Shown here: positions 1 through 35,504 of the stretch, piece by piece
How the letters are laid out: each line of letters opens with the position of its first letter
Numbering within the stretch: position 1 is the stretch's first letter
Source of the DNA: a virus
Length of the DNA: 35,504 nt
Strand: one strand, 5' to 3'
IMG/VR virus record: IMGVR_UViG_3300021387_000081
Span: 1-35,504 of that record
Notes under the pieces: model-generated
What the model saw: only the letters and a program-made list of their open reading frames with translations
What the model was told of the DNA's origin: nothing
The model's database searches: none
Made by a program: the position numbers and the translations under genes

Positions 1-107
1 TATCTTATCTCCAGTACGCTGTGCGACGGTATGTACTATGAGCTGACATACAACGGCGACAAGAAGGAATGGTATCTCGACGCTTACAAGAAGTTCGAGA
101 ATGTTGT
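1..107. repeat. Terminal overlap identical to 35398-35504 (circular or terminally redundant contig)
   Basis: Read base by base: tatcttatctccagtacgctgtgcgacgg...gagaatgttgt occurs at both ends with no mismatch. Confidence 0.95.
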
Positions 108-120: not shown

Positions 121-128
121 TGTTTACA

Positions 129-175
129 AGCATTTGCGACCGACAACAATGTCGGCGGCAAGTGCTATTTTTATT
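129..175 (+). promoter_or_regulatory. Conserved extended hairpin plus U-tract, copy A (upstream of protease)
   Basis: agcatttgc (129-137) pairs with gcaagtgct (158-166). Inner stem is ccgaca/tgtcgg with loop acaa, followed by atttttatt. Paralogous to copies at 1494 and 32984. Confidence 0.65.
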
Positions 176-195
176 CCCTGAAAGGATGTGAAAGA

Positions 196-777
196 ATGAA
201 AATCGAAGTCAGAGCTGACGGACTGCATATAAGCGGCTACGTCAACGTCACCGGCAAGCTGAGCAGACCGGTGATAACACCCAGAGGCAAAGTCCTTGAA
301 ACTATCGAGGAGAGAGCTTTCAGCGAGGCTATCAAGAAGAACGGCGACATCACGGTGACACTCGATCACGATCAGGGGCACGCCTATGCAAATACCCGTG
401 ACGGTTCTCTCGTTCTCCGTGAGGACGCTATCGGACTTCACGCCGATGTGCTCATCACAGATGAAACAGTCATCGAAATGGCACGCAAGGGCAAACTGAG
501 AGGCTGGTCCTTCGGTATGTTCAACGTACAGGACGAAATCGAGAGCCGCGGTGAGGACGAGCTGCCGATCAGACACGTCAAGAGCCTGGAACTGGATCAT
601 GTGTCCCTCATCAAGGACAAGATACCGTGCTACGCTGCGACATCGGTGGAGTGCCGTGCAGGCGGTGACATCGACATGGAGCTGCGTTCCCTCGATATCG
701 AGCCTGTGCTTGTCATCGAGAACAAGCCGGACTACAGCGATTATGAGAACAGGCTGAAAATGCTGGAATTCGAGTGA
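196..777 (+). CDS. HK97-family prohead protease (S78/U35-like)
   Basis: 193-aa ORF lying after the portal-side cassette ORFs and before the capsid gene, separated from it by the 778-1563 cassette. N-terminal MKIEVRADGL..GYVNV and the LDHD..H pattern are typical of prohead proteases. SD aaagga lies 9 nt upstream of the ATG. Confidence 0.85.
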   Translation: MKIEVRADGLHISGYVNVTGKLSRPVITPRGKVLETIEERAFSEAIKKNGDITVTLDHDQGHAYANTRDGSLVLREDAIGLHADVLITDETVIEMARKGKLRGWSFGMFNVQDEIESRGEDELPIRHVKSLELDHVSLIKDKIPCYAATSVECRAGGDIDMELRSLDIEPVLVIENKPDYSDYENRLKMLEFE

Positions 778-828
778 AGGGCAATTGAGCTCCGGTATCG
801 CCAGTACATTCAGCTGCCGAATGGTAAA

Positions 829-1179
829 ATGAATGGCAGCAGGAGTATAGGCGGCGGAAGTCGAAAGCTCTATCATCACGATCCGGATACCGGAGGTGGC
901 GGGAGCACGAAGAAAAGTGTTGACAAATCATCAGATGATGGTGTACAATATGGTAAAGAAGAAATCAAGAATGATTTCGATGGAAAACCATATACCTATC
1001 CTGAATTACATTTACCTAAGAAAGAATATGGCACTGTTATAAGGCAAATCGATGATAACTATGAATCTAAGTATAAAGGCAAGAGTATAGGCTTTCACAG
1101 TACGTCAAAATATACCTATAAATTTGAAATACGTGGATATAACGATTATAACATTTTTTCAAAATGGAAAAATGATTAA
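829..1179 (+). CDS. Leader-linker-variable domain module (type-1 leader). The conserved coding signal already starts at 778, in frame after the protease TGA
   Basis: Same frame as the protease. Codons 787-858 encode ELRYRQYIQLPNGKMNGSRSIGGG, matching portal residues encoded at 34278-34349. The C-terminal 75 aa are AT-rich and unrelated to the other cassettes. Confidence 0.55.
   Translation: MNGSRSIGGGSRKLYHHDPDTGGGGSTKKSVDKSSDDGVQYGKEEIKNDFDGKPYTYPELHLPKKEYGTVIRQIDDNYESKYKGKSIGFHSTSKYTYKFEIRGYNDYNIFSKWKND
920..949 (+). promoter_or_regulatory. Sigma-70-like promoter inside the linker codons (TTGACA-18-TACAAT)
   Basis: ttgaca at 920-925 and tacaat at 944-949. Flank aaaagtgTTGACAaatc matches the four other junction promoters. 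This is the weakest of the set. Confidence 0.45.
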
Positions 1180-1190
1180 GGGGTGATTAT

Positions 1191-1388
1191 ATGAATGATG
1201 AGTTTAAAATGCTTATAAAATCTGTTCCTGATACATATGAAGACTTTGAACGTTGGGTATTTCGAGCAGCCGAAACATATGAGGGATATGCAGAATATAT
1301 AATCAACTACTTAAAAGATCATCCAGATGCAACTACAAGTGATATAGCTGCTTATGAAGAGCCTTTTTTAAGGGAAAGAGCAGAATAA
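1191..1388 (+). CDS. Small acidic protein, candidate cognate partner or immunity protein of the upstream variable domain
   Basis: 65-aa ORF with SD aagggg 8 nt upstream. AT-rich like the preceding variable domain and directly followed by terminator T1. Confidence 0.55.
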   Translation: MNDEFKMLIKSVPDTYEDFERWVFRAAETYEGYAEYIINYLKDHPDATTSDIAAYEEPFLRERAE

Positions 1389-1395
1389 TCGAGTT

Positions 1396-1425
1396 ACCGC
1401 CCTCATTGAGAGCGGTTTTCTTATG
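1396..1425 (+). terminator. Intrinsic terminator T1 (family GCGGTTTTCTTATG)
   Basis: accgccctca/tgagagcggt stem followed by ttttcttatg. The tail is shared with T2, T3 and T4. Confidence 0.7.
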
Positions 1426-14880: not shown

Positions 14881-14909
14881 TTGACAGAAAGCAAAATCTG
14901 GTATATAAT
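14881..14909 (+). promoter_or_regulatory. Perfect consensus sigma-70 promoter on the plus strand
   Basis: TTGACA, a 17-nt spacer and TATAAT with no mismatch. It points against the minus-strand operon. Confidence 0.6.
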
Positions 14910-18701: not shown

Positions 18702-18730
18702 TTGACTTCTGATAAAAATCGGAATATAAT
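18702..18730 (+). promoter_or_regulatory. Early promoter P1 with an operator in the spacer
   Basis: TTGACT, a 17-nt spacer and TATAAT. The spacer tctgataaaaatcgga is a near-palindrome that recurs at 19887 and 19916. Confidence 0.65.
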
Positions 18731-18753
18731 ATAGCTGGAGGGAGGTGAAGCGA

Positions 18754-19909: not shown

Positions 19910-19938
19910 TTGACTTCTGACAAAAATCAGACTATAAT
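19910..19938 (+). promoter_or_regulatory. Early promoter P2 with operator O3 in the spacer
   Basis: TTGACT, tctgacaaaaatcagac and TATAAT. Near-duplicate of P1, sharing ttgacttctga.aaaaatc and tataatata. Confidence 0.65.
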
Positions 19939-20082
19939 ATAATCAAGCTATTGAACAGGGTACAGTTATCCTATAGTTTGAGAGCAGTGTGATTCTATAG
20001 GGTAATATAAATATTCTTAGTCTTATTATACGACTTTTTATACATTATGTCAATAGCTGAGTTTTAAAAAGGAGGTGATAAA

Positions 20083-25964: not shown

Positions 25965-26729
25965 GTGGCTAATCCGCAGTTAAAGAACGGATATACCAAG
26001 ATAGCAAACGAGTTGCTCGAAGCAATATGCAGGCTTAATATCTCAGGCAATGAAATGCGGATATTGCTGTACATTATCCGCAGGACTTATGGGTTCAACA
26101 GAAGTTATGCAGAGATATCACTTTCAGAGATTGCAAGTGCTGTAGGGACAAGATCTGTGCATATTTCAAGGGCATTAAAAAAGCTTTCAGCACTGAATCT
26201 GATAGAACTGAGATCAAGTGAAGGTGTTAAACCTCAGACTATTTCCATTGTGAAAGATTATGAAGAATGGGCTGTTGAAAGTTGTACAGAATTACTATTA
26301 CCAAAAATGGTAACCGTTACCAAAAATGGTAACCTTACTATTACCAAAAATGGTAACTCTACTATTACCAAAAATGGTAACCCTACTATTACCAAAAATG
26401 GTAACCCTACATATAAAGACAATATTAAAGAAAATATTAAAGACAGTTTTAAATACAACAAAACAACCTACGGCAGAAATGGAAAAGTATTGTTGAAAAC
26501 CGAGGAGTACGACAAATTAATTAACGATTACGGGAAGAAAACAGCTGAGAGGTACATTGATCGTATGGATAATTATTTGGCATCCCAAAGCCGAGAGTAC
26601 AAGGACTGCTATGCTGAGCTTCTTGTCTGGCTCGATAAGGACGGAGTTCAAAAAAATGATCCAGATGCTTTCGATGTTGATAAGTACAAGTTCGTTATCA
26701 ACAGATTCGGGAAGGAGAAAGCGCGGTGA
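25965..26729 (+). CDS. Replication initiator/replisome organizer (phage O-like N-terminal domain) with internal iterons
   Basis: Contains NGYTKIANELLEAI....SGNEMRILLYIIRRTYGF, a winged-helix replication-protein N-terminus. GTG start follows gaggtg. Confidence 0.8.
   Translation: MANPQLKNGYTKIANELLEAICRLNISGNEMRILLYIIRRTYGFNRSYAEISLSEIASAVGTRSVHISRALKKLSALNLIELRSSEGVKPQTISIVKDYEEWAVESCTELLLPKMVTVTKNGNLTITKNGNSTITKNGNPTITKNGNPTYKDNIKENIKDSFKYNKTTYGRNGKVLLKTEEYDKLINDYGKKTAERYIDRMDNYLASQSREYKDCYAELLVWLDKDGVQKNDPDAFDVDKYKFVINRFGKEKAR
26298..26405. repeat. Five iterons TTACCAAAAATGGTAAC (candidate ori) inside the replication gene
   Basis: Copies start at 26298, 26317, 26341, 26365 and 26389. Each is an inverted repeat TTACCA/TGGTAA. 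They are translated as the (I)TKNGN repeats. Confidence 0.8.
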
Positions 26730-27170: not shown

Positions 27171-27363
27171 CACTGACATGCTCTACATGGCGAGCCTGCA
27201 AAAGAGGCTCGATGCATCAGAAGAGGAGAACCGGAAGCTGAAGGAGCTGCTGCGTGACATTCAGCCGCTCATAACCGGGGCGCTGTATGTGAACTACAAG
27301 CAGACCAAGGCTGCGGATGAGGTCTACGACAGGATAGTGAAGGCGCTGGGAGAGAAGCGATGA
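27163..27363 (+). CDS. Hypothetical protein
   Basis: 66 aa, overlapping its neighbours. Confidence 0.5.
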   Translation: MSDTDMLYMASLQKRLDASEEENRKLKELLRDIQPLITGALYVNYKQTKAADEVYDRIVKALGEKR

Positions 27364-27788
27364 CGGAGACTGAACTGACCACAAGGCACTGGCTGAACCG
27401 TGCCTTCTACGCGGACAAGAAAGCAAAGGCACTGGAAATGCTCGTCAGGCAGTGCAGAGAACGCGCTGAGGGGCTTTCACGATGCTCGGAGGGCAATGAC
27501 AAGGGCAGGAGCGACGGCGCCGAAAACGGCACGGAAAACGCTCTCATGAAGCTTGCGGAAATGGAGAGAAAAGCGGATGCCCAGAGAGTTGAGGCAGTGA
27601 ACGTCTTGGCAGAGATACAGACGATCATCTCCGGACTTCACGACGATGACCTTGAAGCTGTTCTGATACACAGATATATTCTGTTTCACACTATCGAGCA
27701 GACCGCGGAGATAATGAACTATCATCCGAACACTGTGAAGAGCAAGGTCAAGAAAGCAATACAGAAACTATGTACCGAAATGTCTTGA
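27360..27788 (+). CDS. Putative late-gene transcriptional regulator (sigma-70 region-4-like HTH; RinA/ArpU/DUF1492-type position)
   Basis: The C-terminus LIHRYILFHTIEQTAEIMNYHPNTVKSKVKKAIQKL resembles sigma region 4. It is the last gene before the packaging module. Confidence 0.55.
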   Translation: MTETELTTRHWLNRAFYADKKAKALEMLVRQCRERAEGLSRCSEGNDKGRSDGAENGTENALMKLAEMERKADAQRVEAVNVLAEIQTIISGLHDDDLEAVLIHRYILFHTIEQTAEIMNYHPNTVKSKVKKAIQKLCTEMS

Positions 27789-27941
27789 AATGTCCTTTCC
27801 TTATGTGATATGCTGTATACATAGAGATCAGGCAAGAGCCGGGAGCTTAGGAATTTCCTTCCGCTCAGCCTGCTCTCTGTCTCCTTTCTTTTGTTCTACA
27901 CATCATGATCTTATTTTATCTGCCGGTGACGGCAGACTTCT

Positions 27942-28016
27942 GGCAGGTTGGAACAGCGGCAGTTCGCAAGGCTCATAACCTTGAGGTCGTGGGTTCGAGT
28001 CCCACACCTGCAACCA
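27942..28016 (+). tRNA. tRNA with CAT anticodon (Met, or Ile2 if lysidine-modified)
   Basis: Manual cloverleaf: acceptor ggcaggt/acctgca, D stem gaac/gttc, anticodon stem caagg/ccttg with loop ctCATaa, T arm gtggg-ttcgagt-cccac, and an encoded ACCA. Positions 1 and 72 are G and A (unpaired). Confidence 0.8.
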
Positions 28017-28100: not shown

Positions 28101-28304
28101 ATGGACATAAACAAATGCACCTGCGGAGGACTTGCAGAGCTGAAACGAGAGTACGCGAAAAATAGCGTGAGCATGAAAATAGAGTGCATTTCCTGCGGAC
28201 GAAGTGGGAGAACAGTCACTCTCACTGCCTCAGGTCCGATACCCGAAGCAATGCTCGACAGATTCGCTGAGCAGCTGACAGCAGACTGGAACGCCGGCAG
28301 ATGA
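28101..28304 (+). CDS. Lar-family restriction-alleviation-like protein
   Basis: 67 aa with C.CGG...C.SCG and a C-terminal A.DWN..R, the Lar-family pattern as I recall it. SD ggaggg. Confidence 0.55.
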   Translation: MDINKCTCGGLAELKREYAKNSVSMKIECISCGRSGRTVTLTASGPIPEAMLDRFAEQLTADWNAGR

Positions 28305-28660
28305 AGAAGGCATGTCCGTACTGCGGAGGCATCCACAGCAGCGGCGAAGTCTGCGCGAAAAAGCCGGCAGAGAAGAACGCTTCATCCGGCGCAGATGTGT
28401 TCCGCGGCAGCTATGAGTGGAAGGAAAAGCGTGGATACATCATGCGCCGTGACAAGTATCTCTGTCAGGCGTGTCTTCACGGTATAGGCGGAAAGATCCG
28501 GCTCTGCAACGAGGAACTATCAGTGCATCATATACGGCCGCTGAAAACTAACTTTGAGTTGCGTTTAGATGAAAAAAACCTGATAACACTATGCCGTTTT
28601 CATCACGAAAAGGCAGAAAGCGGAGAAATTTCTGCGGAAAAATTGTTAAAAATCTTGTAA
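28301..28660 (+). CDS. HNH endonuclease (terminase-associated)
   Basis: Contains C.YCGG, YLCQAC, VHHI.PL and LCRFHH, and lies immediately upstream of terS. Confidence 0.85.
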   Translation: MKKACPYCGGIHSSGEVCAKKPAEKNASSGADVFRGSYEWKEKRGYIMRRDKYLCQACLHGIGGKIRLCNEELSVHHIRPLKTNFELRLDEKNLITLCRFHHEKAESGEISAEKLLKIL

Positions 28661-28743: not shown

Positions 28744-29214
28744 ATGAAAGGACGTGATACTGTGGCGAGACCGGCAATGAGTGCGAAAACTACGTCAAAG
28801 CACCTTACGAAGGCGGAGGCTGAGGCAAAGTCCTCGACCGAAGAACTGCTCAGAGGCAGGGCAGACAGGCTGCGTCCGCCTAAGTATCTGACGACTGCGC
28901 AGAAGAAGATCTTCAAGTTCATCGTCCGGGAACTGGAGGGCAGCGGCATCCTTGGCAATCTGGACATCTATGTGCTGACCGAGTGCTGCATCGCGCTTGA
29001 CAGGATGCAGGAGATAGAGAGCAGGATCAATCAGGATCCGGTGCAGCTCAGCAATGACAAGCTGCTGCAATCGAAGGACAGATATACGAAGTCCTTCTTC
29101 CGCTGCTGCAATGAGCTGTGCCTGAGTCCTCAGAGCAGGGCGAAAATGGGCAACCTCAACTTGCAGGCGAAGGAAGAGAATCCGCTGCTGAAGGTGCTGA
29201 GCGATGATGAATAA
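28744..29214 (+). CDS. terS: Terminase small subunit (P27 family)
   Basis: Contains P.YLT..QKKIFKFIV.EL...GILGNLD...L...C.ALDR, typical of P27-family small subunits. Confidence 0.8.
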   Translation: MKGRDTVARPAMSAKTTSKHLTKAEAEAKSSTEELLRGRADRLRPPKYLTTAQKKIFKFIVRELEGSGILGNLDIYVLTECCIALDRMQEIESRINQDPVQLSNDKLLQSKDRYTKSFFRCCNELCLSPQSRAKMGNLNLQAKEENPLLKVLSDDE

Positions 29215-29839
29215 AGACTGGTTCATAGATTACGCGGAACATGCGGTCAGAGTGATAGACATCGAGACACGCTGGTATGAGCTCAGAGGCTGGATAACAA
29301 AAAACGGAAGGCATATCCTGATTGGCGATGATGAGGGTGGCAGCTCCACCAGCGGAGCAGGCAGAAAAGCTGCCAAAAAGGTTGACAAAGCCGGGGAAAG
29401 TGGTATAATTGAAGAAAAGACAGGAGAAACGGCGGGAACTGATGTGCATAAAGTTGGAAAGATAGATGTTGAAAAGTTTGAAACTATTGCAAATGGAAGA
29501 ATTCTCACCGACGAGGTGATCATAACAGATAATCGGATCGAACACATTATTGAGCGAAGAGGTCAGAAGTTTTATGACGATTTTAAAGGCTATTTTCCTG
29601 AAATAATAGAAGCACCCGACTATATATTCAAAGATGATATGGACAATACAGCTATTGTGTCTAAATCATATAGCCATAAGGGAAAAACAGTAAACTTAGT
29701 TCTTAGGCTCGTAGTTGAAGGGGAAAACCCAAGCTATAAGAATTCTATACTAACTGCAATTGGTGAGAACGAGAAAAGATTTGCTCAACGTTTACGCAAT
29801 AACGTTCCTGTGTATAAAAAAGTTGACAAATCAGAATAA
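29204..29839 (+). CDS. Type-2 leader, Gly/Ser linker and PBECR-like (barnase-EndoU-colicin E5/D-RelE fold) nuclease domain
   Basis: 211 aa. The leader is WFIDYAEHAVRVIDIETRWYELRGWITKNGRHILIG. The C-terminus ITDNRIEHIIERRG...PEIIEAPDYIFKD..NTAIVSK...VNLVLRL resembles phage PBECR domains. The gene sits between terS and terL. Confidence 0.7.
   Translation: MMNKDWFIDYAEHAVRVIDIETRWYELRGWITKNGRHILIGDDEGGSSTSGAGRKAAKKVDKAGESGIIEEKTGETAGTDVHKVGKIDVEKFETIANGRILTDEVIITDNRIEHIIERRGQKFYDDFKGYFPEIIEAPDYIFKDDMDNTAIVSKSYSHKGKTVNLVLRLVVEGENPSYKNSILTAIGENEKRFAQRLRNNVPVYKKVDKSE
29219..29325 (+). repeat. 107-nt direct repeat (leader coding), partner at 31762-31868
   Basis: 9 mismatches by eye. Five fall in the codons for ELRG and all five are synonymous. 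Confidence 0.9.
29382..29409 (+). promoter_or_regulatory. Extended -10 consensus promoter inside the linker codons (KKVDKAGESGII)
   Basis: TTGACA at 29382-29387, a 16-nt spacer ending in tgg, and TATAAT at 29404-29409. Confidence 0.55.
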
Positions 29840-29851
29840 ATGTGATATAAT
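29823..29851 (+). promoter_or_regulatory. Extended -10 consensus promoter at the 3' end of the PBECR-like ORF (KKVDKSE-stop)
   Basis: TTGACA at 29823-29828, a 17-nt spacer ending in tga, and TATAAT at 29846-29851. Confidence 0.6.
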
Positions 29852-29857
29852 GAAGGT

Positions 29858-29980
29858 AAGATAAGAGTAGGTTATCAGAGGTGGTAAATTTCGTAGCGAC
29901 CACACGCCGCTGGTAACGACAGGGAGTAATCCCGAGAGATGCAGGAGAATGCTACGCCTGCCTGATAACCACTCTTTCCA
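29858..29980 (+). ncRNA. Candidate structured RNA between terS-side cassette and terL
   Basis: A 15-bp long-range helix (29863-29878 with 29962-29976, one bulged A) encloses hairpins 29881-29903, 29922-29933 (GUAA loop) and 29941-29961. Two hairpin loops carry complementary hexamers cgtagc and gctacg. Confidence 0.45.
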
Positions 29981-29981
29981 G

Positions 29982-30014
29982 ACCGCTTCGAGAAATCGGA
30001 GCGGTTTTCTTATA
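29982..30014 (+). terminator. Intrinsic terminator T4 (family GCGGTTTTCTTAT)
   Basis: accgcttcga/tcggagcggt stem with GAAA loop, followed by ttttcttata. Confidence 0.7.
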
Positions 30015-30041: not shown

Positions 30042-31742
30042 ATTGACATAGTGAAGAACAGCAGAGCTTATAAATATGCTCTGTGGTGTACCGAGCCGGA
30101 CAATCACTATGTCGGGCGGTACATAAAGAAGCAGGCGGTGATCTGGCTGGAGATAGCGGACGGTCAGAGCGATGAAGCATATGTCTGTGAGAAGCGCTGG
30201 AAGAAGATAACGAAGCTGCTGAAGATCATCATGCACCCTGACCTCGGACATTCGATGTATGAGGGACTTGAGGACTACGCAGTTTTATTCATATATGCCT
30301 TGTTCTGTACAAAGCGCCGGAGCGACAGTCTCCGGTACTACGAGACCGGGCTTTTAGAGATCGCGAGGAAGAACTTCAAGACGTTCACCTCAGCGGTCAT
30401 TTTTATTATCGGACTGCTGACAGAGCCGAAGTTCAGCCGCTTTTTCAGTGTGGCACCGGATCTGAAACTCTCCAGTGAATTGCAGGTGGCTATCAAGAAG
30501 ATAATCAAGTCGAGCCCCTGTCTGGCGGACGAGAAGGTGTTCAAGCTGCTGCGGAAGGAGATACGCTGCAAGCTGACTGACTCTGAGTATACTCCTCTTG
30601 CTTACTTACAGGACAAGATGGACGGAAAGCTTGCAAATATGTTTCTTGCTGACGAGTGCGGAGCAATGGACAACTATCCCATAGAAGCCATGCGATCCTC
30701 ACAGATCGTGCTGAGGGAGAAGCTTGGCATCATCATCTCTACCCAGTACCCCAATGACAACAATGCTATGCTGGAAGAGGTTGACAACGCCAAAAAGATC
30801 CTTGACGGACTACGGCATGGAAGGGTGTTCGCACTGCTCTATGAGCCGGATGATGAGTTCAAGACCGGCGATGCGTGGATGACATCGGACACAGCGCTGT
30901 ATCAGGCTAATCCGGTGGCGTACGCCCATGAATACGTCATGGATGACCTGAGGGCGAAGCGTCAGGCTGCCATAGATTATGAGAACAAGCGGGAGAACTT
31001 CCTGTGCAAGCACATGAACATCCTCTACAAAGGACTCGGAGTTGAGGGATTTGTCGAGATAACGAAGGTAAGACTGTGTAAAGTTCCGGCGGATGCTGAG
31101 TTCTGGAGGGGCAGACAGGTATATATCGGGCTTGACCTCTCTCAGACCGATGACAATACCTCGGTCGCAATGGTGACATATGATGCGGATGAGGATATGA
31201 TATACGTCAAGGTCTGGGGATTCATCCCGGCTGACCGCATCGACGAGAAATCCCAGCGCGAAAAGGTGGATTACAAGAAGCTCATAGCCGCAGGAGAATG
31301 CTTTGCCTGCGGTGATGAGGTCATTGACTACGGCTTTGTGGAGCGGTTCATACAGTCGCTGCCGGAGCAGTACGGCGTTGAGATAGTTCAGCTGGGCTTT
31401 GACCGGTACAATGCTATCTCCACAGTACAGAAGCTGGAAAGCGGAGAGGATCCGATCGAGTGCGTTGAGATTAGACAGCACAGCAGCGTCTTACACAGAC
31501 CAACGAAGCTGCTGAAAGAACGTATCCTGAGCCGTAAGCTGCGGTATGAGGAGAATCATATGCTGGAGATCAACTTCCAGAACGCCAGATGCACCGAGGA
31601 CACGAATCTGAACAAGTATGTCAACAAGAGAAAGTCCGCCGGCAAGGTGGATATGGTGGTATCTGTCATAAACGCGCTGTATCTCTTGCAGGTGAATGTG
31701 CTTGACAGCATGGAGCAGGGGTTCGGGTGCCAGATCATATGA
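30042..31742 (+). CDS. terL: Terminase large subunit (start uncertain: ATT 30042 or GTG 30051)
   Basis: A Terminase_1-like sequence over about 560 aa. The tracked 5' extension contains terminator T4. SD aaaggag lies 9 nt before ATT and 18 nt before GTG. Confidence 0.85.
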   Translation: MDIVKNSRAYKYALWCTEPDNHYVGRYIKKQAVIWLEIADGQSDEAYVCEKRWKKITKLLKIIMHPDLGHSMYEGLEDYAVLFIYALFCTKRRSDSLRYYETGLLEIARKNFKTFTSAVIFIIGLLTEPKFSRFFSVAPDLKLSSELQVAIKKIIKSSPCLADEKVFKLLRKEIRCKLTDSEYTPLAYLQDKMDGKLANMFLADECGAMDNYPIEAMRSSQIVLREKLGIIISTQYPNDNNAMLEEVDNAKKILDGLRHGRVFALLYEPDDEFKTGDAWMTSDTALYQANPVAYAHEYVMDDLRAKRQAAIDYENKRENFLCKHMNILYKGLGVEGFVEITKVRLCKVPADAEFWRGRQVYIGLDLSQTDDNTSVAMVTYDADEDMIYVKVWGFIPADRIDEKSQREKVDYKKLIAAGECFACGDEVIDYGFVERFIQSLPEQYGVEIVQLGFDRYNAISTVQKLESGEDPIECVEIRQHSSVLHRPTKLLKERILSRKLRYEENHMLEINFQNARCTEDTNLNKYVNKRKSAGKVDMVVSVINALYLLQVNVLDSMEQGFGCQII

Positions 31743-31749
31743 GGTGGAT

Positions 31750-32385
31750 ATGGATAATAATTGGTTCATGGACTACGCGGAACATGCGGTCAGAGTGATA
31801 GACATCGAGACACACTGGTATGAATTACGCGGCTGGATAACAAAAAACGGAAGGCATATACTGATTGGTGAAGAAGGCAGTTCTTCCGGCGGAGCAGGCA
31901 AGAGTATTGACAAATCTGCGAAAAGTGGTATAATAAAATCAGGAGCGGTGAGTGGTGCATTATCTCCTGCCAGCAAAGAAGCACAGGCTCATGCTGAGCA
32001 ATACTATGAGTCTGTTCGTAAAATGAAAACAGATGTAAAAAACATCTCAAATAATACCGGCTTTAGTGAAAGCGACATTTTGCAAATAAAGAATCATGTA
32101 TTCATAGAAGAACATGATTTGGGCGGAGACGTCCCAGAGCGTTTTTATCCCAATTATGCTATGGCTCAATCATGGCAAAGGCTTATTGAGGGTAAAAACA
32201 TCCAGAAGCACGATATTACACTGCTTCATCACGAAAAAATGGAAAGCGATTTGATGAAGAAGGGCTTATCTCAGATAAAAGCTCATAGTATATCTGAGAA
32301 AAAGTTTAATTATGCTAAAGAAAGTAGGGAGTATTATGCTGAGATTAATAAACATAGCGATAGGACTAAAAACAATCGAAGCTGA
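31750..32385 (+). CDS. Type-2 leader, Gly/Ser linker and an unrecognised C-terminal domain
   Basis: 211 aa. The leader is WFMDYAEHAVRVIDIETHWYELRGWITKNGRHILIG. The C-terminal region ...IKNHVFIEEHDLGG..PERFYPNYAMAQSWQRLIEGKNIQKHDITLLHHEKMESDL has no homology to the other cassettes. ATG 31750 follows gaggtgg. Confidence 0.7.
   Translation: MDNNWFMDYAEHAVRVIDIETHWYELRGWITKNGRHILIGEEGSSSGGAGKSIDKSAKSGIIKSGAVSGALSPASKEAQAHAEQYYESVRKMKTDVKNISNNTGFSESDILQIKNHVFIEEHDLGGDVPERFYPNYAMAQSWQRLIEGKNIQKHDITLLHHEKMESDLMKKGLSQIKAHSISEKKFNYAKESREYYAEINKHSDRTKNNRS
31762..31868 (+). repeat. 107-nt direct repeat (leader coding), partner at 29219-29325
   Basis: See the partner repeat. A 40-nt block tacgcggaacatgcggtcagagtgatagacatcgagacac is identical in both. 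Confidence 0.9.
31907..31934 (+). promoter_or_regulatory. Extended -10 consensus promoter inside the linker codons (KSIDKSAKSGII)
   Basis: TTGACA at 31907-31912, a 16-nt spacer ending in tgg, and TATAAT at 31929-31934. Confidence 0.55.
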
Positions 32386-32584
32386 TTATATCCCTGAAAA
32401 TAGTGATAAGTCAGCACATATAACGCTTGATATAAAAACAAGGGATTATACTGCCGAGAGTATCAAAGAATTCGGTTCAATGTATGGCAGAATGGCTGCA
32501 AACGGGCTTATAAGGACCCTTGATGAGCTAAAAAGCGGCAAGAGGAAAGAAATTCCCGAAGAAAGACTTGTTATGTGGTATTAA
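32336..32584 (+). CDS. 82-aa protein overlapping the 3' end of the upstream variable domain, candidate cognate partner
   Basis: ATG 32336 lies 5 nt after agggag and overlaps the upstream gene by 50 nt. AT-rich. Confidence 0.5.
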   Translation: MLRLINIAIGLKTIEADYIPENSDKSAHITLDIKTRDYTAESIKEFGSMYGRMAANGLIRTLDELKSGKRKEIPEERLVMWY

Positions 32585-32604
32585 TACCTAAGGTGGGAGG
32601 ATTA

Positions 32605-32721
32605 ATGAAAGTTAAGTACACTGGTAAAACAAGTTTTCTTGTTCTGACAAACGGAAAGATATATGATGTCATTTCTGTCGAAAAAGGTTGGTACAGAATC
32701 AAAGACGACAAAGGTGCTTAA
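32605..32721 (+). CDS. 38-aa short paralogue of the ORF at 34721-34882
   Basis: MKVKYTGKTSFLVLTNGKIYDVISVEKGWYRIKDDKGA compared with MKVKYIGKQYLDTAFEKDKIYEVISVEKGWYRIMTELDEDYLFPPECFEIVEE. SD ggtgggagg. Confidence 0.45.
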   Translation: MKVKYTGKTSFLVLTNGKIYDVISVEKGWYRIKDDKGA

Positions 32722-32811
32722 AGCAACTAAAAAAGGTGAATATCGTGATAACGAATACCGAACGGTAGTAAATAAATTCCTTGATAATCAGCAGAAAGGT
32801 GGGCTTTTTGA

Positions 32812-32922
32812 ATGGAAGAAATGAATGTAGTTCTTGACGGATCAAATAAGGAAGGCTCTGAGAGACTTGCTGAAATGATCAAAAGACTTGAGGAAGAAAA
32901 GAAAAAAGATAAGACCGTCTGA
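32812..32922 (+). CDS. 36-aa charged peptide (speculative)
   Basis: SD aaaggtggg lies 8 nt upstream. The stop lies inside the T3 stem. Confidence 0.3.
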   Translation: MEEMNVVLDGSNKEGSERLAEMIKRLEEEKKKDKTV

Positions 32923-32944: not shown

Positions 32945-32983
32945 CCTATATTAAAACGCGAAGTGAAGTAAACAACGCTTGAA

Positions 32984-33030
32984 AGCATTTGTGACCGGCA
33001 CCAATGTCGGCTGCAAGTGCTGTTTTTATA
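32984..33030 (+). promoter_or_regulatory. Conserved extended hairpin plus U-tract, copy C (upstream of portal)
   Basis: agcatttgt (32984-32992) pairs with gcaagtgct (33013-33021). Inner stem is ccggca/tgtcgg, followed by gtttttata. Confidence 0.65.
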
Positions 33031-33047
33031 TCCAAACCACGAAAGGA

Positions 33048-34724
33048 GTGGTCAAAATAGGACTTTTCAGACGAAAAAAGCGGCAGGAAATAAGGGCGGA
33101 TACAGCTCAGAACGGCGAAAACACCATACTGACGTTCTTCGGACTGACCGGAGAACTTACGCGGGAGGCTGCGCTGAGCATACCGACGGTATCAGCCTGC
33201 ATCGGCAAGATAGGGGAGACCATATCGCGGCTGCCGGTGAAGCTTTACAGGAAGGATGAAGAGCAGGTCACGGAGATATCCGACGATGACCGGCTGAAGC
33301 TGCTCAACGGCAGCACCGGCGACACTCTCAGCACTGTTGACATGTGGAAAGCAGCGGTGGAGGACTACTACCTCGGGCGCGGAGCATGGATATACGTCAA
33401 CAGCGACGGTCTGAGTGTCCGGAGCCTGCACTATGTGGACAGCCGGAACGTGAGCATCATGTGCAACAATGATCCGATATTCAAGGCATTCAGAGTGCAG
33501 ATAAACGCGCAGAACTATTATGATTTCCAGTTTATCAAGCTGCTGAGGAAGACGCGGGACGGCTACACGAACATCCCGTTGCAGGAGGAGGCATCCTCGG
33601 TACTTTCGGCAGCGTGGAACGCTCTGAAGCTGGAGAACATGATGAACTCCAACGGCGGCTGCAAGCCGGGCTTCCTGAAAGCGAAGAACAGGCTCTCGGA
33701 TGCGGCGATAGCAGCGATCAGGGAAGGTTACCAGAAGGTCTATGACAACGAGCAGAAGCGTGACAAGATAATCGTGCTGAATGACGGTGTTGACTTCGAG
33801 GCGATATCCTCAACGGCTGCGGAGCTCCAGATGAACGAGAATAAGAAGACCAACAGCATCGAGATCTGCAAGCTGTTCGGCTTCCCTCATACGGTCATTG
33901 ACGGCGGAGCATCCGATGACGACAACAAGAAGTTCATTTCGGCGGTCATATCGCTCCTGAATCAGATCGAGACAGAGCTGGACAACGTTCTCCTGCTTGA
34001 ATCCGAGAAGGAGCAGGGGTATTACTGGGCGTTTGATACCAAGGAACTGACACGCGGCAGTCTTCTTGAACGTATGCAGGCTTATGAGATAGCCAAGCGG
34101 AACAACATCCTGCAGGTGGATGAGATCCGCCGGGAAGAGGACTATGAGCCTCTCGGCTTCAACTATATCACCCTCGGTCTTGCTGATGTTCTCCTTGATC
34201 CTGTTACTATGGAGGTCTATACCCCCAATACCGGACAGACAAAGAACCTTGTTACCGGTGAGGAACGGGCACTTACAGAGCTGAGGTACCGCCAATATAT
34301 CCAAGGTCCTGACGGAAAGATGCAGGGGAGCAGAAGCGTAGGCGGAGGAAGAGCGACGAAAAAGGTTGACAAATCCAAAAAAACTGATATAATAAAATTA
34401 GAGGATATTGAGGTCGGAAAGTCACTTGGAGCAAAGGCTAAAAACTATGACATTATGGATTTGGAAACGGGTGAACATTTTAACCTTGTTGAAAGGACCA
34501 GTTTGCAAGATGTTGAGGTCTTTGCTGGAAAGGGCGTTAAATCTGAGTTCCGAAAAGCTGATAAATATGCTAAAAAATACGGCGGTAAAGCCAAAGATTG
34601 GCAACACGCTAAAGGCACAGGAACTGTAGATTATTACGGTGAAGGGCGAAAAGCTGAATTACACTGGGCACAGTGTGAAGGTATAGGAAAACACGATTTT
34701 TTCATAAAGAGGTGGTTGGAATGA
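33048..34724 (+). CDS. Portal protein (HK97 family) with a roughly 130-aa C-terminal leader-linker-toxin-like extension (start uncertain: GTG 33048 or ATA 33057)
   Basis: The portal core includes ALSIPTVSACIGKIGETISRLPVKLY. After ELRYRQYIQGPDGKMQGSRSVGGG comes an AT-rich domain VGKSLGAKAKNYDIMDLETGEHF...WQHAKGTGTVDYYGEGRKAELHWAQ...FFIKRWLE, which resembles C-terminal toxin domains seen on MuF/gp7 head proteins. Confidence 0.85.
   Translation: MVKIGLFRRKKRQEIRADTAQNGENTILTFFGLTGELTREAALSIPTVSACIGKIGETISRLPVKLYRKDEEQVTEISDDDRLKLLNGSTGDTLSTVDMWKAAVEDYYLGRGAWIYVNSDGLSVRSLHYVDSRNVSIMCNNDPIFKAFRVQINAQNYYDFQFIKLLRKTRDGYTNIPLQEEASSVLSAAWNALKLENMMNSNGGCKPGFLKAKNRLSDAAIAAIREGYQKVYDNEQKRDKIIVLNDGVDFEAISSTAAELQMNENKKTNSIEICKLFGFPHTVIDGGASDDDNKKFISAVISLLNQIETELDNVLLLESEKEQGYYWAFDTKELTRGSLLERMQAYEIAKRNNILQVDEIRREEDYEPLGFNYITLGLADVLLDPVTMEVYTPNTGQTKNLVTGEERALTELRYRQYIQGPDGKMQGSRSVGGGRATKKVDKSKKTDIIKLEDIEVGKSLGAKAKNYDIMDLETGEHFNLVERTSLQDVEVFAGKGVKSEFRKADKYAKKYGGKAKDWQHAKGTGTVDYYGEGRKAELHWAQCEGIGKHDFFIKRWLE
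34366..34393 (+). promoter_or_regulatory. Extended -10 consensus promoter inside the portal linker codons (KKVDKSKKTDII)
   Basis: TTGACA at 34366-34371, a 16-nt spacer ending in tga, and TATAAT at 34388-34393. Confidence 0.55.
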
Positions 34725-34882
34725 AAGTCAAATATATAGGTAAACAGTATTTAGATACAGCTTTTGAAAAAGACAAAATATATGAAGTTATTTCGGTTGA
34801 AAAAGGCTGGTATAGGATAATGACTGAGCTTGACGAAGATTATCTTTTTCCACCTGAATGCTTTGAAATCGTAGAAGAATAA
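34721..34882 (+). CDS. 53-aa small protein, candidate cognate partner, paralogue of 32605-32721
   Basis: ATGA overlap with the portal stop. SD agaggtgg. Confidence 0.55.
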   Translation: MKVKYIGKQYLDTAFEKDKIYEVISVEKGWYRIMTELDEDYLFPPECFEIVEE

Positions 34883-34945
34883 AGAAAACAAGCGTAATCT
34901 ATAATTCTAAGGGCAACTTCCTCACGTTTGAAAGGGAGTGAGCAT

Positions 34946-35212
34946 ATGTGTAAACTTTTTGATGAATGGGCATCAGAGATTGAGATGTTTTGTCAGAAAA
35001 ATGATCTCAGCTTTGACAAGGCAAAGACACTTTCGCAGTGTTGGGGAAAAGACGATCTTATCTTGCAGTACTACGATAAAGAAAAGGGGAAAAACGGACT
35101 GCTCGATGAAACACCTATGCCTGTTGTTCTCTGGATAAAACGTGATAAGAATGGAAATCTTTCATTTGAAAAAACTGAGCATACTGAAAAATACCTTGGA
35201 AAAGTTTCCTAA
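34946..35212 (+). CDS. 88-aa hypothetical protein (cassette cargo)
   Basis: ATG 34946 lies 7 nt after agggag. It is followed directly by terminator T2. Confidence 0.6.
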   Translation: MCKLFDEWASEIEMFCQKNDLSFDKAKTLSQCWGKDDLILQYYDKEKGKNGLLDETPMPVVLWIKRDKNGNLSFEKTEHTEKYLGKVS

Positions 35213-35221
35213 TACTTCAAA

Positions 35222-35251
35222 ACCGCCCTCACTGAGAGCGGTTTTCTTATG
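35222..35251 (+). terminator. Intrinsic terminator T2 (family GCGGTTTTCTTATG)
   Basis: accgccctca/tgagagcggt followed by ttttcttatg. It differs from T1 at one loop base. Confidence 0.7.
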
Positions 35252-35274: not shown

Positions 35275-35504
35275 ATGGACGAGAAAGCCTTACAGATAGT
35301 CAGAGATTATATATTTGCACATCTCGACAAGACGGATACTGTTCCGCCTTTTGATGTCTATATGGTCTGGAAGTGCAAAGCCTTGCAGAACTGGAAGTAT
35401 CTTATCTCCAGTACGCTGTGCGACGGTATGTACTATGAGCTGACATACAACGGCGACAAGAAGGAATGGTATCTCGACGCTTACAAGAAGTTCGAGAATG
35501 TTGT
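35275..35504 (+). CDS. Small conserved phage protein (79 aa in total; continues at 1-120)
   Basis: ATG 35275 follows aggaggtgag. Translation MDEKALQIVRDYIFAHLDKTDTVPPFDVYMVWKCKALQNWKYLISSTLCDGMYYELTYNGDKKEWYLDAYKK resembles a widespread head-module hypothetical family. Confidence 0.75.
   Translation, partial: MDEKALQIVRDYIFAHLDKTDTVPPFDVYMVWKCKALQNWKYLISSTLCDGMYYELTYNGDKKEWYLDAYKKFENV
35398..35504. repeat. Terminal overlap identical to 1-107
   Basis: See feature 1-107. Confidence 0.95.

What the first reader, a model, noticed from the sequence alone, without database searches (positions are those of the whole stretch)
29204..29839. A PBECR-like nuclease ORF sits between terS and terL
terS and terL are normally adjacent or overlapping. 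Here a 211-aa ORF overlaps the terS stop by 11 nt. It starts with the type-2 leader and ends in a domain with ITDNRIEHIIERRG...PEIIEAPDYIFKD..NTAIVSK...VNLVLRLV..E...YKNSILTA. I recognise this as the phage barnase-EndoU-ColE5/D-RelE (PBECR) type of RNase-fold domain. No protein-coding partner follows. Instead the next element is a strongly promoted structured RNA. The last residues KKVDKSE-stop repeat the cassette junction motif, as if a further cassette junction had been truncated here.
Basis: partly seen in the sequence, partly recalled or inferred. Interest (0 to 1): 0.66.

Follow-up and report, generated by a model that had tools for sequence, protein, structure and literature searches.

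The report
Phage RNase toxin paired with RNA
The gene wedged between the two DNA-packaging genes of this gut-bacterial phage does encode a PBECR2-type RNA-cutting enzyme, and wherever this enzyme occurs it is followed by the same orphan structured RNA ("skipping-rope"), so the two look like a toxin and its RNA antidote.

Summary
ORF 29204-29839 (211 aa) overlaps the terS stop by 11 nt. Its C-terminal 131 aa are a PBECR2 domain (Pfam 35.6 bits, cut-off 27.1). The catalytic His and Ser/Thr are conserved and the AF2 model is confident.

The downstream RNA is the Rfam family skipping-rope (RF02924), with a perfect sigma-70-type promoter and an intrinsic terminator.

- **Pairing:** 133 of 136 related PBECR2 loci carry this RNA directly downstream on the same strand. 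The three exceptions are cut by contig ends. In the reverse direction, 19 of 117 RNAs lack PBECR2.
- **Neighbours:** no protein neighbour is conserved.
- **C-terminal KKVDKSE:** it is not a truncated junction. It is the family's conserved C-terminus and carries the -35 box of the RNA promoter.
- **Upstream junction motif:** it is a second consensus promoter, followed by a conserved GTG. This amounts to a nested 131-aa "solo" gene inside the fusion.
- **N-terminal leader:** a rare module shared with other effectors.

The best reading is a self-contained toxin plus RNA-antidote cassette, type III TA-like, grafted onto a late-expressed leader. RNase activity, neutralisation by the RNA and packaging into the virion are all inferred. 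The protein is a new member of a known family. The RNase-RNA pairing is a new variant.

The parts
28744..29214 (+). terS (small terminase). Its stop overlaps the start of the 211-aa ORF by 11 nt, an arrangement typical of translational coupling.
   Evidence: Pfam Terminase_4 E=2.4e-11; ORF list and sequence.
29204..29839 (+). 211-aa ORF: leader + Gly/Ser linker + junction motif + PBECR2 domain.
   Evidence: P0001 100% identical, 3 contigs; phrog_29609 E=9.4e-36, unknown function.
29204..29331 (+). 'Type-2 leader' (aa 1-43, ...RGWITKNGRHILIG). This N-terminal module is shared with ORF 31750-32385 and with effectors of other phages.
   Evidence: 88% nt identity to 31750-31874. The leader profile finds 42 cluster representatives, mostly 125-285 aa, with the leader at the N-terminus and unrelated C-termini. 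The AF2 model of this part is low-confidence.
29382..29409 (+). P1: perfect TTGACA-N16-TATAAT with a TG extension, read in frame as KKVDKAGESGII (the 'cassette junction motif').
   Evidence: A promoter-like site of at least 9/12 lies at a fixed distance (31 or 34 nt) before the domain start in 57 of 66 non-redundant fused homologues.
29444..29836 (+). PBECR2 RNase-fold domain (aa 81-211). GTG 29444 is the probable nested start of a 131-aa 'solo' protein. An SD-like GGCGGGA lies at 29431-29437.
   Evidence: Pfam PBECR2. Solo homologues of 131 aa start at this position. The codon is GTG/TTG/ATG in 60 of 66 fused and 43 of 48 solo loci; GTG is 54 of 55 Val codons here against 20% elsewhere in the domain. 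AF2 pLDDT 93.4.
29823..29851 (+). P2: perfect TTGACA-N17-TATAAT with a TG extension. The -35 lies in the last codons (V-D-K) of the PBECR2 ORF and the -10 lies just after the stop. It drives the RNA; the TSS is expected near 29858.
   Evidence: The -35 (TTGACA or TTTACA) sits inside the last codons in almost all of 107 non-redundant loci. P2 scores at least 10/12 in 99 of 102 pairs.
29871..29969 (+). skipping-rope RNA (Rfam RF02924). The probable transcript runs 29858 to about 30013.
   Evidence: 51.1 bits against GA 36.7; own CM 105.5 bits; 11 of 22 consensus pairs show compensatory changes across 25 homologues; fold z-score -4.2.
29980..30013 (+). Intrinsic terminator hairpin (-18.6 kcal/mol) followed by UUUUCUUAU.
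   Evidence: The same ...GCGGTTTTCTTAT ending closes two other cassettes at 1396-1425 and 35222-35251.
30042..31742 (+). terL. The real start is most likely ATT 30042, 9 nt after AAAGGAG, not the ATG at 29949 that lies inside the RNA.
   Evidence: Pfam TerL_ATPase/TerL_nuclease. The first 25 aa of the long ORF are simply the RNA and terminator translated. Sibling L240 has an in-frame TAG just before the ATT, and the ATG of the L029 terL aligns with this ATT.
31750..32385 (+). Second leader-bearing ORF (211 aa) between terL and portal. It has the same leader and junction (P1-like 31907-31934) and an unrelated C-terminal domain.
   Evidence: Pfam finds no family for the C-terminus.
34366..34393 (+). 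The same junction/promoter motif inside the portal gene, before a C-terminal effector-like extension. Given as context for the cassette system.

Best explanation
Shown: the ORF is a three-part fusion. Part one is a rare about 43-aa N-terminal leader, placed for translational coupling to terS. Part two is a Gly/Ser linker whose 'KKVDK..GII' codons are, at the DNA level, a consensus sigma-70-type promoter (P1). Part three is a PBECR2 domain of the colicin-D-like branch of the BECR RNase fold, with its His and Ser/Thr residues conserved. A second consensus promoter (P2) has its -35 box inside the last codons of the ORF. P2 drives the about 150-nt skipping-rope RNA, which ends in an intrinsic terminator. 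The unit P1 / SD / GTG / PBECR2 / P2 / RNA / terminator is conserved and self-contained. It occurs alone between housekeeping genes in Clostridia chromosomes, in tandem arrays, and fused in frame to the C-termini of virion proteins (Phage_min_cap2, MuF, portal) in phages. Inferred, the most likely mechanism: PBECR2 is a toxic endoRNase and the skipping-rope RNA is its cis-encoded antidote, like a type III antitoxin or an 'RNA immunity' factor. The RNA is made from the stronger promoter, so it is in excess wherever the DNA resides. In a lysogen, P1 and the nested GTG would yield the 131-aa solo RNase held in check by the RNA, which would behave as an addiction or abortive-infection module. In the lytic cycle the late transcript would yield the leader-PBECR2 fusion. 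By analogy with the MuF, minor-capsid and portal fusions, that fusion would be carried in the capsid and delivered without the RNA into the next host, where it would cut host or rival RNAs. The conserved promoter/junction motifs would also serve as shared sequence at which cassettes are exchanged.
For: PBECR2 membership. RNA identity, promoter and terminator. Forward co-occurrence: Rfam finds skipping-rope in 20 of 20 loci. My own CM finds it in 63 of 64 viral and 70 of 72 genomic PBECR2 loci, always on the same strand and about 30-50 nt after the stop. The 3 misses (L061, L086, L131) end at or near the match. Reverse asymmetry: of 123 RNAs found by an RNA-only pattern, 117 have enough upstream sequence to test; 98 have PBECR2 directly upstream and 19 have none anywhere in the locus. 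PBECR2 never occurs without the RNA, which is the pattern expected for an antidote and its orphans. No conserved protein neighbour: 94 downstream ORFs are heterogeneous (Phage_scaffold 19, the rest diverse, including host genes), and 53 upstream neighbours of solo modules are mostly unrelated housekeeping genes. Slot analogy: in this same genome the other effector cassettes have small ORFs in the position the RNA occupies here, followed by the same kind of terminator. Nested expression: start-capable codon, SD-like stretch and promoter are conserved inside fused genes. Unit behaviour: tandem PBECR2-RNA units occur in L065 (x3), L069 (x2) and L104 (x3). Each RNA is closer to RNAs of orthologous units elsewhere (0.91-0.95) than to its neighbour. 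Protein and RNA identities correlate (Spearman 0.56; 0 of 500 Mantel permutations reach it). Virion link: 24 Phage_min_cap2, 15 Phage_Mu_F and 1 SPP1_portal among the N-terminal partners of 40 long homologues, in line with Iyer et al. 2017 (PMC5512222). Cassette swap: sibling phage L240 has the same leader, a different effector plus a small ORF, then the same RNA with its -35 box gone.
Against: Nothing here measures RNase activity, toxicity, RNA-protein binding, transcription start sites or virion content. Foldseek finds no significant solved-structure match; the best relevant hit is the CDI toxin 7m5f_C at probability 0.41. The fold assignment therefore rests on the Pfam HMM, conserved residues, predicted topology and predicted viral structures. 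The RNA is unlike classical type III antitoxins: it is a single complex fold rather than processed tandem repeats, and it lies downstream with its own promoter rather than upstream behind a terminator. The RNA is much more conserved than the protein (median identity 81% against 49%). That is unusual for a rapidly co-evolving immunity factor and would also fit an RNA with its own conserved function or target. Co-divergence and adjacency are expected for any tightly linked pair. The PBECR2 loci were recruited by similarity to this protein, so the 133/133 figure holds for this subfamily, not for all of PF18810. The role of the leader is inferred by analogy only; its AF2 model is low-confidence and it matches no characterised family.
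Confidence: 0.5

Rival explanations
1. The RNA is not an inhibitor. It is the enzyme's dedicated substrate, cofactor or partner in a ribonucleoprotein: PBECR2 processes or is activated by skipping-rope RNA, and the complex is the functional unit, for example an anti-defence RNP or a decoy.
For: The pairing is near-obligate and the two behave as a unit. The RNA has many invariant unpaired nucleotides and is far more conserved than the protein. This fits the view of Weinberg et al. that the motif performs a 'biochemically challenging task' (PMC5737381).
Against: About 16% of RNAs persist without any PBECR2 in the locus, while no PBECR2 lacks the RNA. If each needed the other, orphans of both kinds, or of neither, would be expected. 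The RNA has its own, usually stronger, promoter and terminator, so its stoichiometry is not tied to the protein. When the protein is fused to a capsid protein and packaged, it would act away from the RNA.
Confidence: 0.2
2. The module is a purely intracellular prophage or chromosomal toxin-antitoxin or abortive-infection element (a moron). The in-frame leader fusion has no delivery role and the protein is never packaged.
For: Solo modules sit between housekeeping genes with their own promoters. The nested promoter, SD and GTG are conserved even inside fusions. The leader matches no known virion protein.
Against: 40 of 40 long homologues are fused to head-morphogenesis or portal proteins. The leader ORFs are placed for coupling directly after terS and terL, and the leader recurs on other effectors in related phages. 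The frame stays open for 80 codons across the linker and P1.
Confidence: 0.15
3. The RNA is an independent trans-acting sRNA or a cis-regulator of the downstream gene (here terL). It travels with PBECR2 only because its promoter overlaps the gene's 3' end.
For: The RNA lies immediately upstream of terL in this phage and in L240, where PBECR2 is absent. Weinberg et al. class it as a likely sRNA with a terminator.
Against: Downstream genes are heterogeneous in 94 loci. In L029 the RNA is 1.5 kb from terL. An intrinsic terminator separates it from whatever follows. Linkage through a 6-nt overlap would not preserve the pair across proteins down to about 22-35% identity, or in tandem arrays.
Confidence: 0.08

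Closest known systems
PBECR2 / MuF-C clade of phage BECR-fold predicted RNases (Pfam PF18810; Iyer, Burroughs, Anand, de Souza & Aravind 2017, PMC5512222)
   Same: The HMM hit is above the curated cut-off. [quoted passage not shown] It occurs among late genes, as a solo gene or as the C-terminal domain of MuF, minor-capsid or portal proteins. It is predicted to be packaged and injected.
   Different: Here the carrier is a small novel leader rather than MuF or portal. The gene contains a nested promoter and start. The obligate RNA partner is not mentioned in that paper or in the 2026 BECR classification preprint (10.64898/2026.08.28.747851).
skipping-rope RNA motif (Rfam RF02924; Weinberg et al. 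2017, PMC5737381)
   Same: The covariance-model hit is above the gathering score and a Rho-independent terminator follows. [quoted passage not shown]
   Different: The paper's supplement was not available, so I cannot say which protein was named. In the searchable library no paper links the motif to PBECR or to an RNase toxin. The fixed geometry (same strand, promoter -35 inside the protein's last codons) and the orphan asymmetry are worked out here.
Type III toxin-antitoxin systems (ToxIN, TenpIN, AvcID; e.g. PMC5772629, PMC8860590, PMC10511110)
   Same: A protein toxin, usually an endoRNase, is encoded next to a non-coding RNA that would neutralise it. They are found in chromosomes and phages and are often linked to phage defence.
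   Different: Classical antitoxins are tandem repeats upstream of the toxin, are processed by it and are separated from it by a terminator. Here there is one complex about 100-nt fold downstream with its own promoter. The toxin fold is BECR, not the fold of ToxN or AbiEii. Neutralisation is not shown.
Polymorphic toxin and MuF-toxin cassettes of temperate phages, and colicin D/E5 with their immunity proteins (from my own knowledge of Zhang et al. 2012 and Jamet et al. 2017; immunity-protein logic also)
   Same: A conserved N-terminal carrier is joined to a swappable C-terminal toxin. The protective gene lies immediately 3'. Orphan protective genes and cassette arrays occur.
   Different: The protective slot holds an RNA, not a protein. 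The junctions are promoters read in frame.

Membership tests
PBECR2 (Pfam PF18810) | Profile-HMM score at or above the curated gathering threshold | tested here: met
   35.6 bits against 27.1, E=1.2e-8, aa 90-205 matching profile positions 12-120 of 120. Precomputed PF18810 is recorded on most of 120 homologues.
PBECR2 (Pfam PF18810) | [quoted passage not shown] 2017) | tested here: met
   H114 is invariant and lies in helix aa 109-119. K179-N180-S181 are invariant and T184 nearly so, in the last core strand.
PBECR2 (Pfam PF18810) | [quoted passage not shown] | tested here: met
   Domain-only AF2 model, pLDDT 93.4: E2-6, E24-27, H29-39, H41-56, E60-63, E69-76, E81-88, E100-109, H110-119. This is a predicted structure only.
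PBECR2 (Pfam PF18810) | Structural similarity to solved BECR-fold RNases | tested here: inconclusive
   Foldseek against PDB gives no hit at E<=1e-3; the best relevant hit is CDI toxin 7m5f_C, probability 0.41, TM about 0.33. BFVD predicted structures match a minor capsid protein (E=2e-11, TMq 0.82) and MuF C-terminal domain proteins (E about 2e-4). The PDB sequence search finds nothing.
PBECR2 (Pfam PF18810) | Metal-independent endoRNase activity | not testable with these tools
   It is predicted only for the whole family.
skipping-rope RNA (Rfam RF02924) | Covariance-model score at or above the gathering score | tested here: met
   51.1 bits against 36.7, full model 1-80.
skipping-rope RNA (Rfam RF02924) | Followed by a Rho-independent terminator | tested here: met
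   Hairpin at 29980-30007, -18.6 kcal/mol, followed by UUUUCUUAU.
skipping-rope RNA (Rfam RF02924) | Association with a particular nearby protein domain | tested here: met
   The RNA follows 133 of 136 PBECR2 loci, and 98 of 117 RNAs have PBECR2 upstream. Whether this is the domain Weinberg et al. meant could not be checked.
Type III toxin-antitoxin system | Adjacent protein-toxin gene and non-coding RNA gene forming an autonomous module | tested here: met
   A self-promoted two-gene unit is found between unrelated housekeeping genes and in phages.
Type III toxin-antitoxin system | Antitoxin made of tandem RNA repeats, encoded upstream of the toxin behind a terminator | tested here: not met
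   There is a single about 100-nt structured RNA downstream of the toxin with its own promoter. Only a few loci carry two copies.
Type III toxin-antitoxin system | Toxicity of the protein and its neutralisation by direct RNA binding | not testable with these tools
   No experiment or RNA-protein complex prediction was available.
Polymorphic / MuF-type phage effector | Conserved N-terminal carrier joined to variable C-terminal effector domains | tested here: met
   The same leader occurs on ORF 31750-32385, on a different effector in L240, and on 125-285-aa proteins with unrelated C-termini.
Polymorphic / MuF-type phage effector | MuF (PF04233) or minor-capsid-2 (PF06152) carrier domain | tested here: not met
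   No such domain is found in ORF211. 39 of 40 long homologues do have one.
Polymorphic / MuF-type phage effector | Immunity protein gene immediately downstream | tested here: not met
   No ORF lies between the stop (29839) and terL (30042), only the RNA. No downstream protein is conserved across 94 loci.

The most novel reading that the evidence does not exclude
Skipping-rope RNA is a dedicated structured-RNA antidote for the PBECR2 RNase. That would be the first BECR-fold toxin neutralised by an RNA, and a new architecture of type III-like toxin-antitoxin, or 'RNA immunity', module. The same gene would serve twice. It would be a constitutively expressed solo toxin plus RNA in the lysogen (addiction or abortive infection), and a late-expressed carrier-toxin fusion that the virion delivers without its antidote. 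The consensus promoters translated as linker peptides would double as the recombination joints at which phages swap effector cassettes.
Probability: 0.35. Interest if true: 0.8.

Novelty: new variant of a known kind. Interest (0 to 1): 0.66.

Why it matters
Two orphans would explain each other. PBECR domains occur in about a quarter of phage polyvalent proteins but have never been characterised. Skipping-rope RNA has been a conserved structured RNA without a function since 2017. If the RNA is the RNase's antidote, it gives a simple two-plasmid test for both. It would extend RNA antitoxins to the BECR fold. It would also show how a phage can carry a toxic effector safely, with an RNA that stays behind when the protein is packaged. 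The in-frame promoter junctions and the nested GTG start are a compact example of one DNA stretch coding for a linker, a promoter and a recombination joint. That is relevant to annotating the effector cassettes of gut Clostridia phages. The observation also corrects gene calls: terL starts at ATT 30042, not inside the RNA.

Tried and rejected
1. Foldseek of the full-length AF2 model against PDB was dominated by the low-confidence leader helix (CorA hits) and was uninformative. The domain-only model also gave no significant PDB hit.
2. The PDB sequence-profile search found nothing meaningful.
3. NCBIfam and PADLOC gave no hits for ORF211 or the three other effector-like ORFs. PHROGs gave only an 'unknown function' family.
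4. GenBank phage records gave no DNA match and one weak protein match, so no cultured phage is available for comparison.
5. The supplement of Weinberg et al., which names the associated protein, is not held.
6. My first regular expression for the RNA missed most copies. I replaced it with the covariance model.
7. I tested whether the extended P1 stem seen in this window is conserved. With my anchors, observed pairing was no better than with shuffled partners, probably because of register errors. I make no claim about it.
8. 'RNA as leader or regulator of terL' is rejected because downstream genes are heterogeneous and a terminator intervenes.
9. 'KKVDKSE is a truncated junction' is rejected in favour of a conserved C-terminus that carries the -35 box.
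10. 'terL starts at ATG 29949' is rejected.
11. 'Pseudogene' is rejected: the ORF is intact, the catalytic residues are conserved, and the identical protein occurs on 3 contigs.
Full report
**What is there**

The window is a complete, circularly assembled phage genome of 35,397 bp; bases 1-107 equal 35398-35504. Its packaging and head module runs HNH (28301-28660), terS (28744-29214), terL, portal (to 34724), prohead protease (196-777) and major capsid protein.

Between terS and terL lies the reported ATG ORF, 29204-29839, 211 aa. It overlaps the terS stop by 11 nt in an ATGATGAATAA arrangement. The identical protein is on record as a hypothetical protein of a Ruminococcus sp. MAG on a 35,376-bp contig.

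**The protein**

- Pfam assigns aa 90-205 to PBECR2 (PF18810) at E=1.2e-8 and 35.6 bits, above the curated 27.1. PBECR3 and MuF_C are weaker related hits.
- PHROGs places it in phrog_29609, of unknown function.
- A search of 5.8 billion proteins finds 229 relatives. Many are 131-aa 'solo' proteins that align to aa 81-211. Others are C-terminal domains of longer proteins carrying Phage_min_cap2 or Phage_Mu_F.
- H114 is invariant. So are T108, K154, K179-N180-S181 and N199, and T184 is nearly so. This is the 'His in the N-terminal helix plus C-terminal Ser/Thr' configuration that Iyer et al. give for five of the six PBECR families (PMC5512222).
- AF2 models the domain with pLDDT 93.4: two short strands, two helices (the first carrying H114), a four-strand meander and a C-terminal helix. 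This is the '[pre-alpha + alpha-beta1-4] with extra strands in front' layout described for colicin-like PBECRs (10.64898/2026.08.28.747851).
- Foldseek finds no significant solved structure; the best relevant hit is the CDI toxin 7m5f_C at probability 0.41. It does match predicted viral proteins annotated as minor capsid protein (E=2e-11, TMq 0.82) and MuF C-terminal domain proteins.

I file the domain as a PBECR2 member. RNase activity is predicted for the family, not shown.

**The N-terminal half**

Residues 1-43 (…DWFIDYAEHAVRVIDIETRWYELRGWITKNGRHILIG) are repeated at 88% nucleotide identity at the start of a second 211-aa ORF, 31750-32385. That ORF begins 8 nt after the terL stop and has an unrelated C-terminus.

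The leader is rare. A word-indexed search found 5 proteins. A profile search of 1.84 billion cluster representatives found 42, mostly 125-285 aa, with the leader at the N-terminus and diverse C-termini. Some C-termini show HExxH or HxH…S..D motifs by eye, but Pfam assigns nothing.

The 'GW[IV]T.NG.H[IV].[IL]G' core also recurs four times between domains of an 838-aa polyvalent-like protein (P0146). AF2 gives the leader low confidence. So this is a carrier-plus-variable-effector family, but what the carrier binds is unknown.

**The junction motif is a promoter, and the gene is nested**

The linker codons KKVDKAGESGII are TTGACA-N16-TATAAT with a TG extension (29382-29409). The same motif, in the same reading frame, precedes the effector-like part of ORF 31750-32385 and of the portal's C-terminal extension. 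A near-copy sits in ORF 829-1179. Perfect sites number six in the window against 0.03 expected.

In 66 non-redundant fused homologues:

- A promoter-like site of at least 9/12 lies 31 or 34 nt before the first codon of the domain in 57.
- That first codon is GTG, TTG or ATG in 60.
- Of 55 Val codons at that position, 54 are GTG, although GTG is only 20% of Val codons elsewhere in the domain.
- An SD-like stretch precedes the codon.

The 131-aa solo genes start at exactly this codon, behind the same promoter. The simplest reading is that P1, the SD and GTG 29444 form a nested gene for the solo RNase inside the leader fusion.

**The RNA**

Rfam identifies 29871-29969 as skipping-rope (RF02924): 51.1 bits against 36.7, E=1.7e-9. 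It is preceded by a second perfect, TG-extended promoter (29823-29851), which would start transcription near 29858. It is followed by a -18.6 kcal/mol hairpin and UUUUCUUAU.

Weinberg et al. described the motif as highly conserved, followed by terminators, not self-cleaving and associated with a nearby protein (PMC5737381). Their supplement is not held.

The -35 box of this promoter is the V-D-K of the terminal KKVDKSE. In homologues that position reads V/L/I/F-D-K/T/N/I, that is NTT GAC A.. More distant relatives end in L-Y-K, that is CTT TAC AAA, the one-mismatch hexamer TTTACA. P2 scores at least 10/12 in 99 of 102 non-redundant pairs. The C-terminal motif is therefore a conserved dual-use sequence, not a truncated junction.

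**Is the pairing general?**

I fetched 64 viral and 72 genomic loci encoding relatives of the protein.

*Forward direction (PBECR2 to RNA).*
- Rfam found the RNA directly downstream on the same strand in 20 of 20 loci.
- A covariance model built from those hits found it in 63 of 64 and 70 of 72 loci.
- The three misses end at or within about 120 nt of the protein match.

*Reverse direction (RNA to PBECR2).* An RNA-only pattern scan of viral contigs gave 123 RNAs.
- 98 have PBECR2 within 1.2 kb upstream.
- 6 lack upstream sequence.
- 19 have no PBECR2 anywhere in the locus. Instead they follow MuF, minor-capsid or ART-bearing polyvalent proteins, or small ORFs.

*Other findings.*
- Downstream genes are heterogeneous: scaffold protein in 19 of 94, otherwise diverse, including host genes.
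- Solo modules are flanked by unrelated housekeeping genes.
- 39 of 40 long fusions are to Phage_min_cap2 or Phage_Mu_F, and one is to an SPP1-type portal.
- L065, L069 and L104 carry two or three tandem PBECR2-RNA units.
- Protein and RNA identities correlate (Spearman 0.56, 0 of 500 permutations reach it). RNAs resemble those of orthologous units elsewhere more than their neighbours.

**Context in this phage**

Each late-region insert has the same plan: a carrier or leader, a Gly-rich linker, the junction/promoter, an effector-like domain, one or more small ORFs, and a terminator ending …GCGGTTTTCTTAT. In the PBECR2 cassette the small-ORF slot is taken by the RNA.

A sibling phage, L240, has terS at 64%, terL at 84% and the leader at 90% identity. 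In the terS-terL slot it carries the same leader, a different 222-aa effector and a small ORF, then the same RNA and terminator. The RNA's -35 box is gone; the break lies at the -10. This shows cassette exchange at the promoter motif and an orphaned RNA.

**Mechanism**

What is shown:
- the domain identity;
- the two promoter-like sites and the terminator;
- the nested start signal;
- the near-obligate, oriented pairing;
- the orphan asymmetry;
- the absence of a conserved protein partner;
- the autonomy of the unit.

What is inferred:
- the RNase is toxic;
- the RNA neutralises it;
- the solo form and the RNA act as an addiction or abortive-infection pair in lysogens;
- the leader fusion is packaged and injected without the RNA.

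I put the antidote model at about 0.5. The main rival is that the RNA is a substrate, cofactor or RNP partner, at about 0.2. It fits the RNA's very high conservation (median 81% against 49% for the protein) but not the asymmetry. Two weaker rivals remain. A purely intracellular module with an irrelevant leader stands at about 0.15. An unrelated sRNA or cis-regulator stands at about 0.08.

**Comparison and novelty**

The protein is a new member of a known family. The RNA is a known orphan family. The searchable literature does not link the two, and the 2017 supplement could not be read.

The pair works like a type III toxin-antitoxin or a polymorphic toxin-immunity cassette, but it fails defining features of both. 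There are no antitoxin repeats, the gene order differs from type III systems, and there is no immunity protein. I therefore rate it a new variant of a known kind.

**Caveats**

- All structure evidence is predicted.
- The loci were chosen by similarity to this subfamily.
- Many loci come from related gut Clostridia phages, so the counts are not independent events.
- Promoter and start-site calls are consensus matches.

Noticed in passing
window 1-107 and 35398-35504: The two ends of the window are 100% identical, so the window is a circularly assembled, complete phage genome of 35,397 bp.
   Followed up: partly
window 30042 (terL start): terL most likely starts at a non-canonical ATT, 9 nt after AAAGGAG. 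The ATG at 29949 lies inside the RNA. Sibling L240 has an in-frame TAG just before the ATT, and the ATG of a 61%-identical terL (L029) aligns with it.
   Followed up: yes
window 128-178, 1493-1543, 32983-33033: A 51-nt repeat (AAGCATTTG.GAC…hairpin…GTGCTATTTTTAT.CCC, 78-86% identical) sits just upstream of the protease, major capsid and portal coding starts. Each copy lies after a cassette terminator. It could be a late promoter or regulatory element that restarts expression after each insulated cassette.
   Followed up: no
window 775-1425: The protease stop codon (TGA 775-777) is in frame with a copy of the portal's C-terminal junction (AIELRYRQYIQLPNGKMNGSRSIGGG, compare portal ELRYRQYIQGPDGKMQGSRSVGGG). 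ORF 829-1179 then carries the junction motif (TTGACA-N18-TACAAT) and an unknown domain. A 65-aa ORF (1191-1388) and a terminator (1396-1425) follow. It looks like a cassette copied together with the portal's 3' end.
   Followed up: partly
window 34366-35251: The portal has a C-terminal extension of about 110 aa after the junction/promoter motif. Homologous domains end MuF proteins elsewhere (L143). Small ORFs follow at 34721-34882 (phrog_34144) and 34946-35212, then a terminator at 35222-35251.
   Followed up: partly
window 31750-32922: A second leader ORF (211 aa) has an unannotated C-terminal domain. Several small overlapping ORFs follow it, one of which (32575-32721) again matches phrog_34144.
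   Followed up: partly
P0146 (838 aa) and other long hits: The leader's core motif GW[IV]T.NG.H[IV].[IL]G recurs four or more times between different domains of large polyvalent-like proteins. It may be a general module-boundary motif, perhaps a processing site, a docking site or a recombination joint.
   Followed up: no
L240 (IMGVR_UViG_3300045988… sibling phage), oriented coordinates about 1026-2100: The terS-terL slot holds the same leader fused to a different effector (HTHP…S..D motif) plus a small ORF, then the same skipping-rope RNA without its -35 box. This is a cassette swap with the breakpoint at the -10 of the RNA promoter.
   Followed up: yes
L065, L069, L104; L007, L050-L052, L117, L130: L065, L069 and L104 carry tandem arrays of two or three PBECR2-RNA units. 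L007, L050-L052, L117 and L130 carry two RNA copies after one PBECR2.
   Followed up: partly
L001 3702-3761: A second Rfam motif, GP20-b (RF03003, 59.4 bits), lies about 100 nt after the skipping-rope RNA and just before a scaffold-protein gene.
   Followed up: no
window 26317-26436: There are four tandem 24-nt repeats (TTACCAAAAATGGTAAC.CTACTA), each containing the inverted repeat TTACCA…TGGTAA. They could be iterons or protein-binding sites.
   Followed up: no
window 27360-28016: A sigma-factor-like transcriptional regulator (phrog_36, E=3e-15) and a tRNA-Met (27942-28016) lie just upstream of the HNH-terS module.
   Followed up: no
window 14881-14909 (+), 20025-20053 (-), 18702-18733 and 19910-19941: Two further perfect consensus promoters lie in the early/lysogeny region. 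A 32-nt promoter-like repeat (TTGACTTCTGA.AAAAATC.GA.TATAATATA) is also present twice.
   Followed up: no
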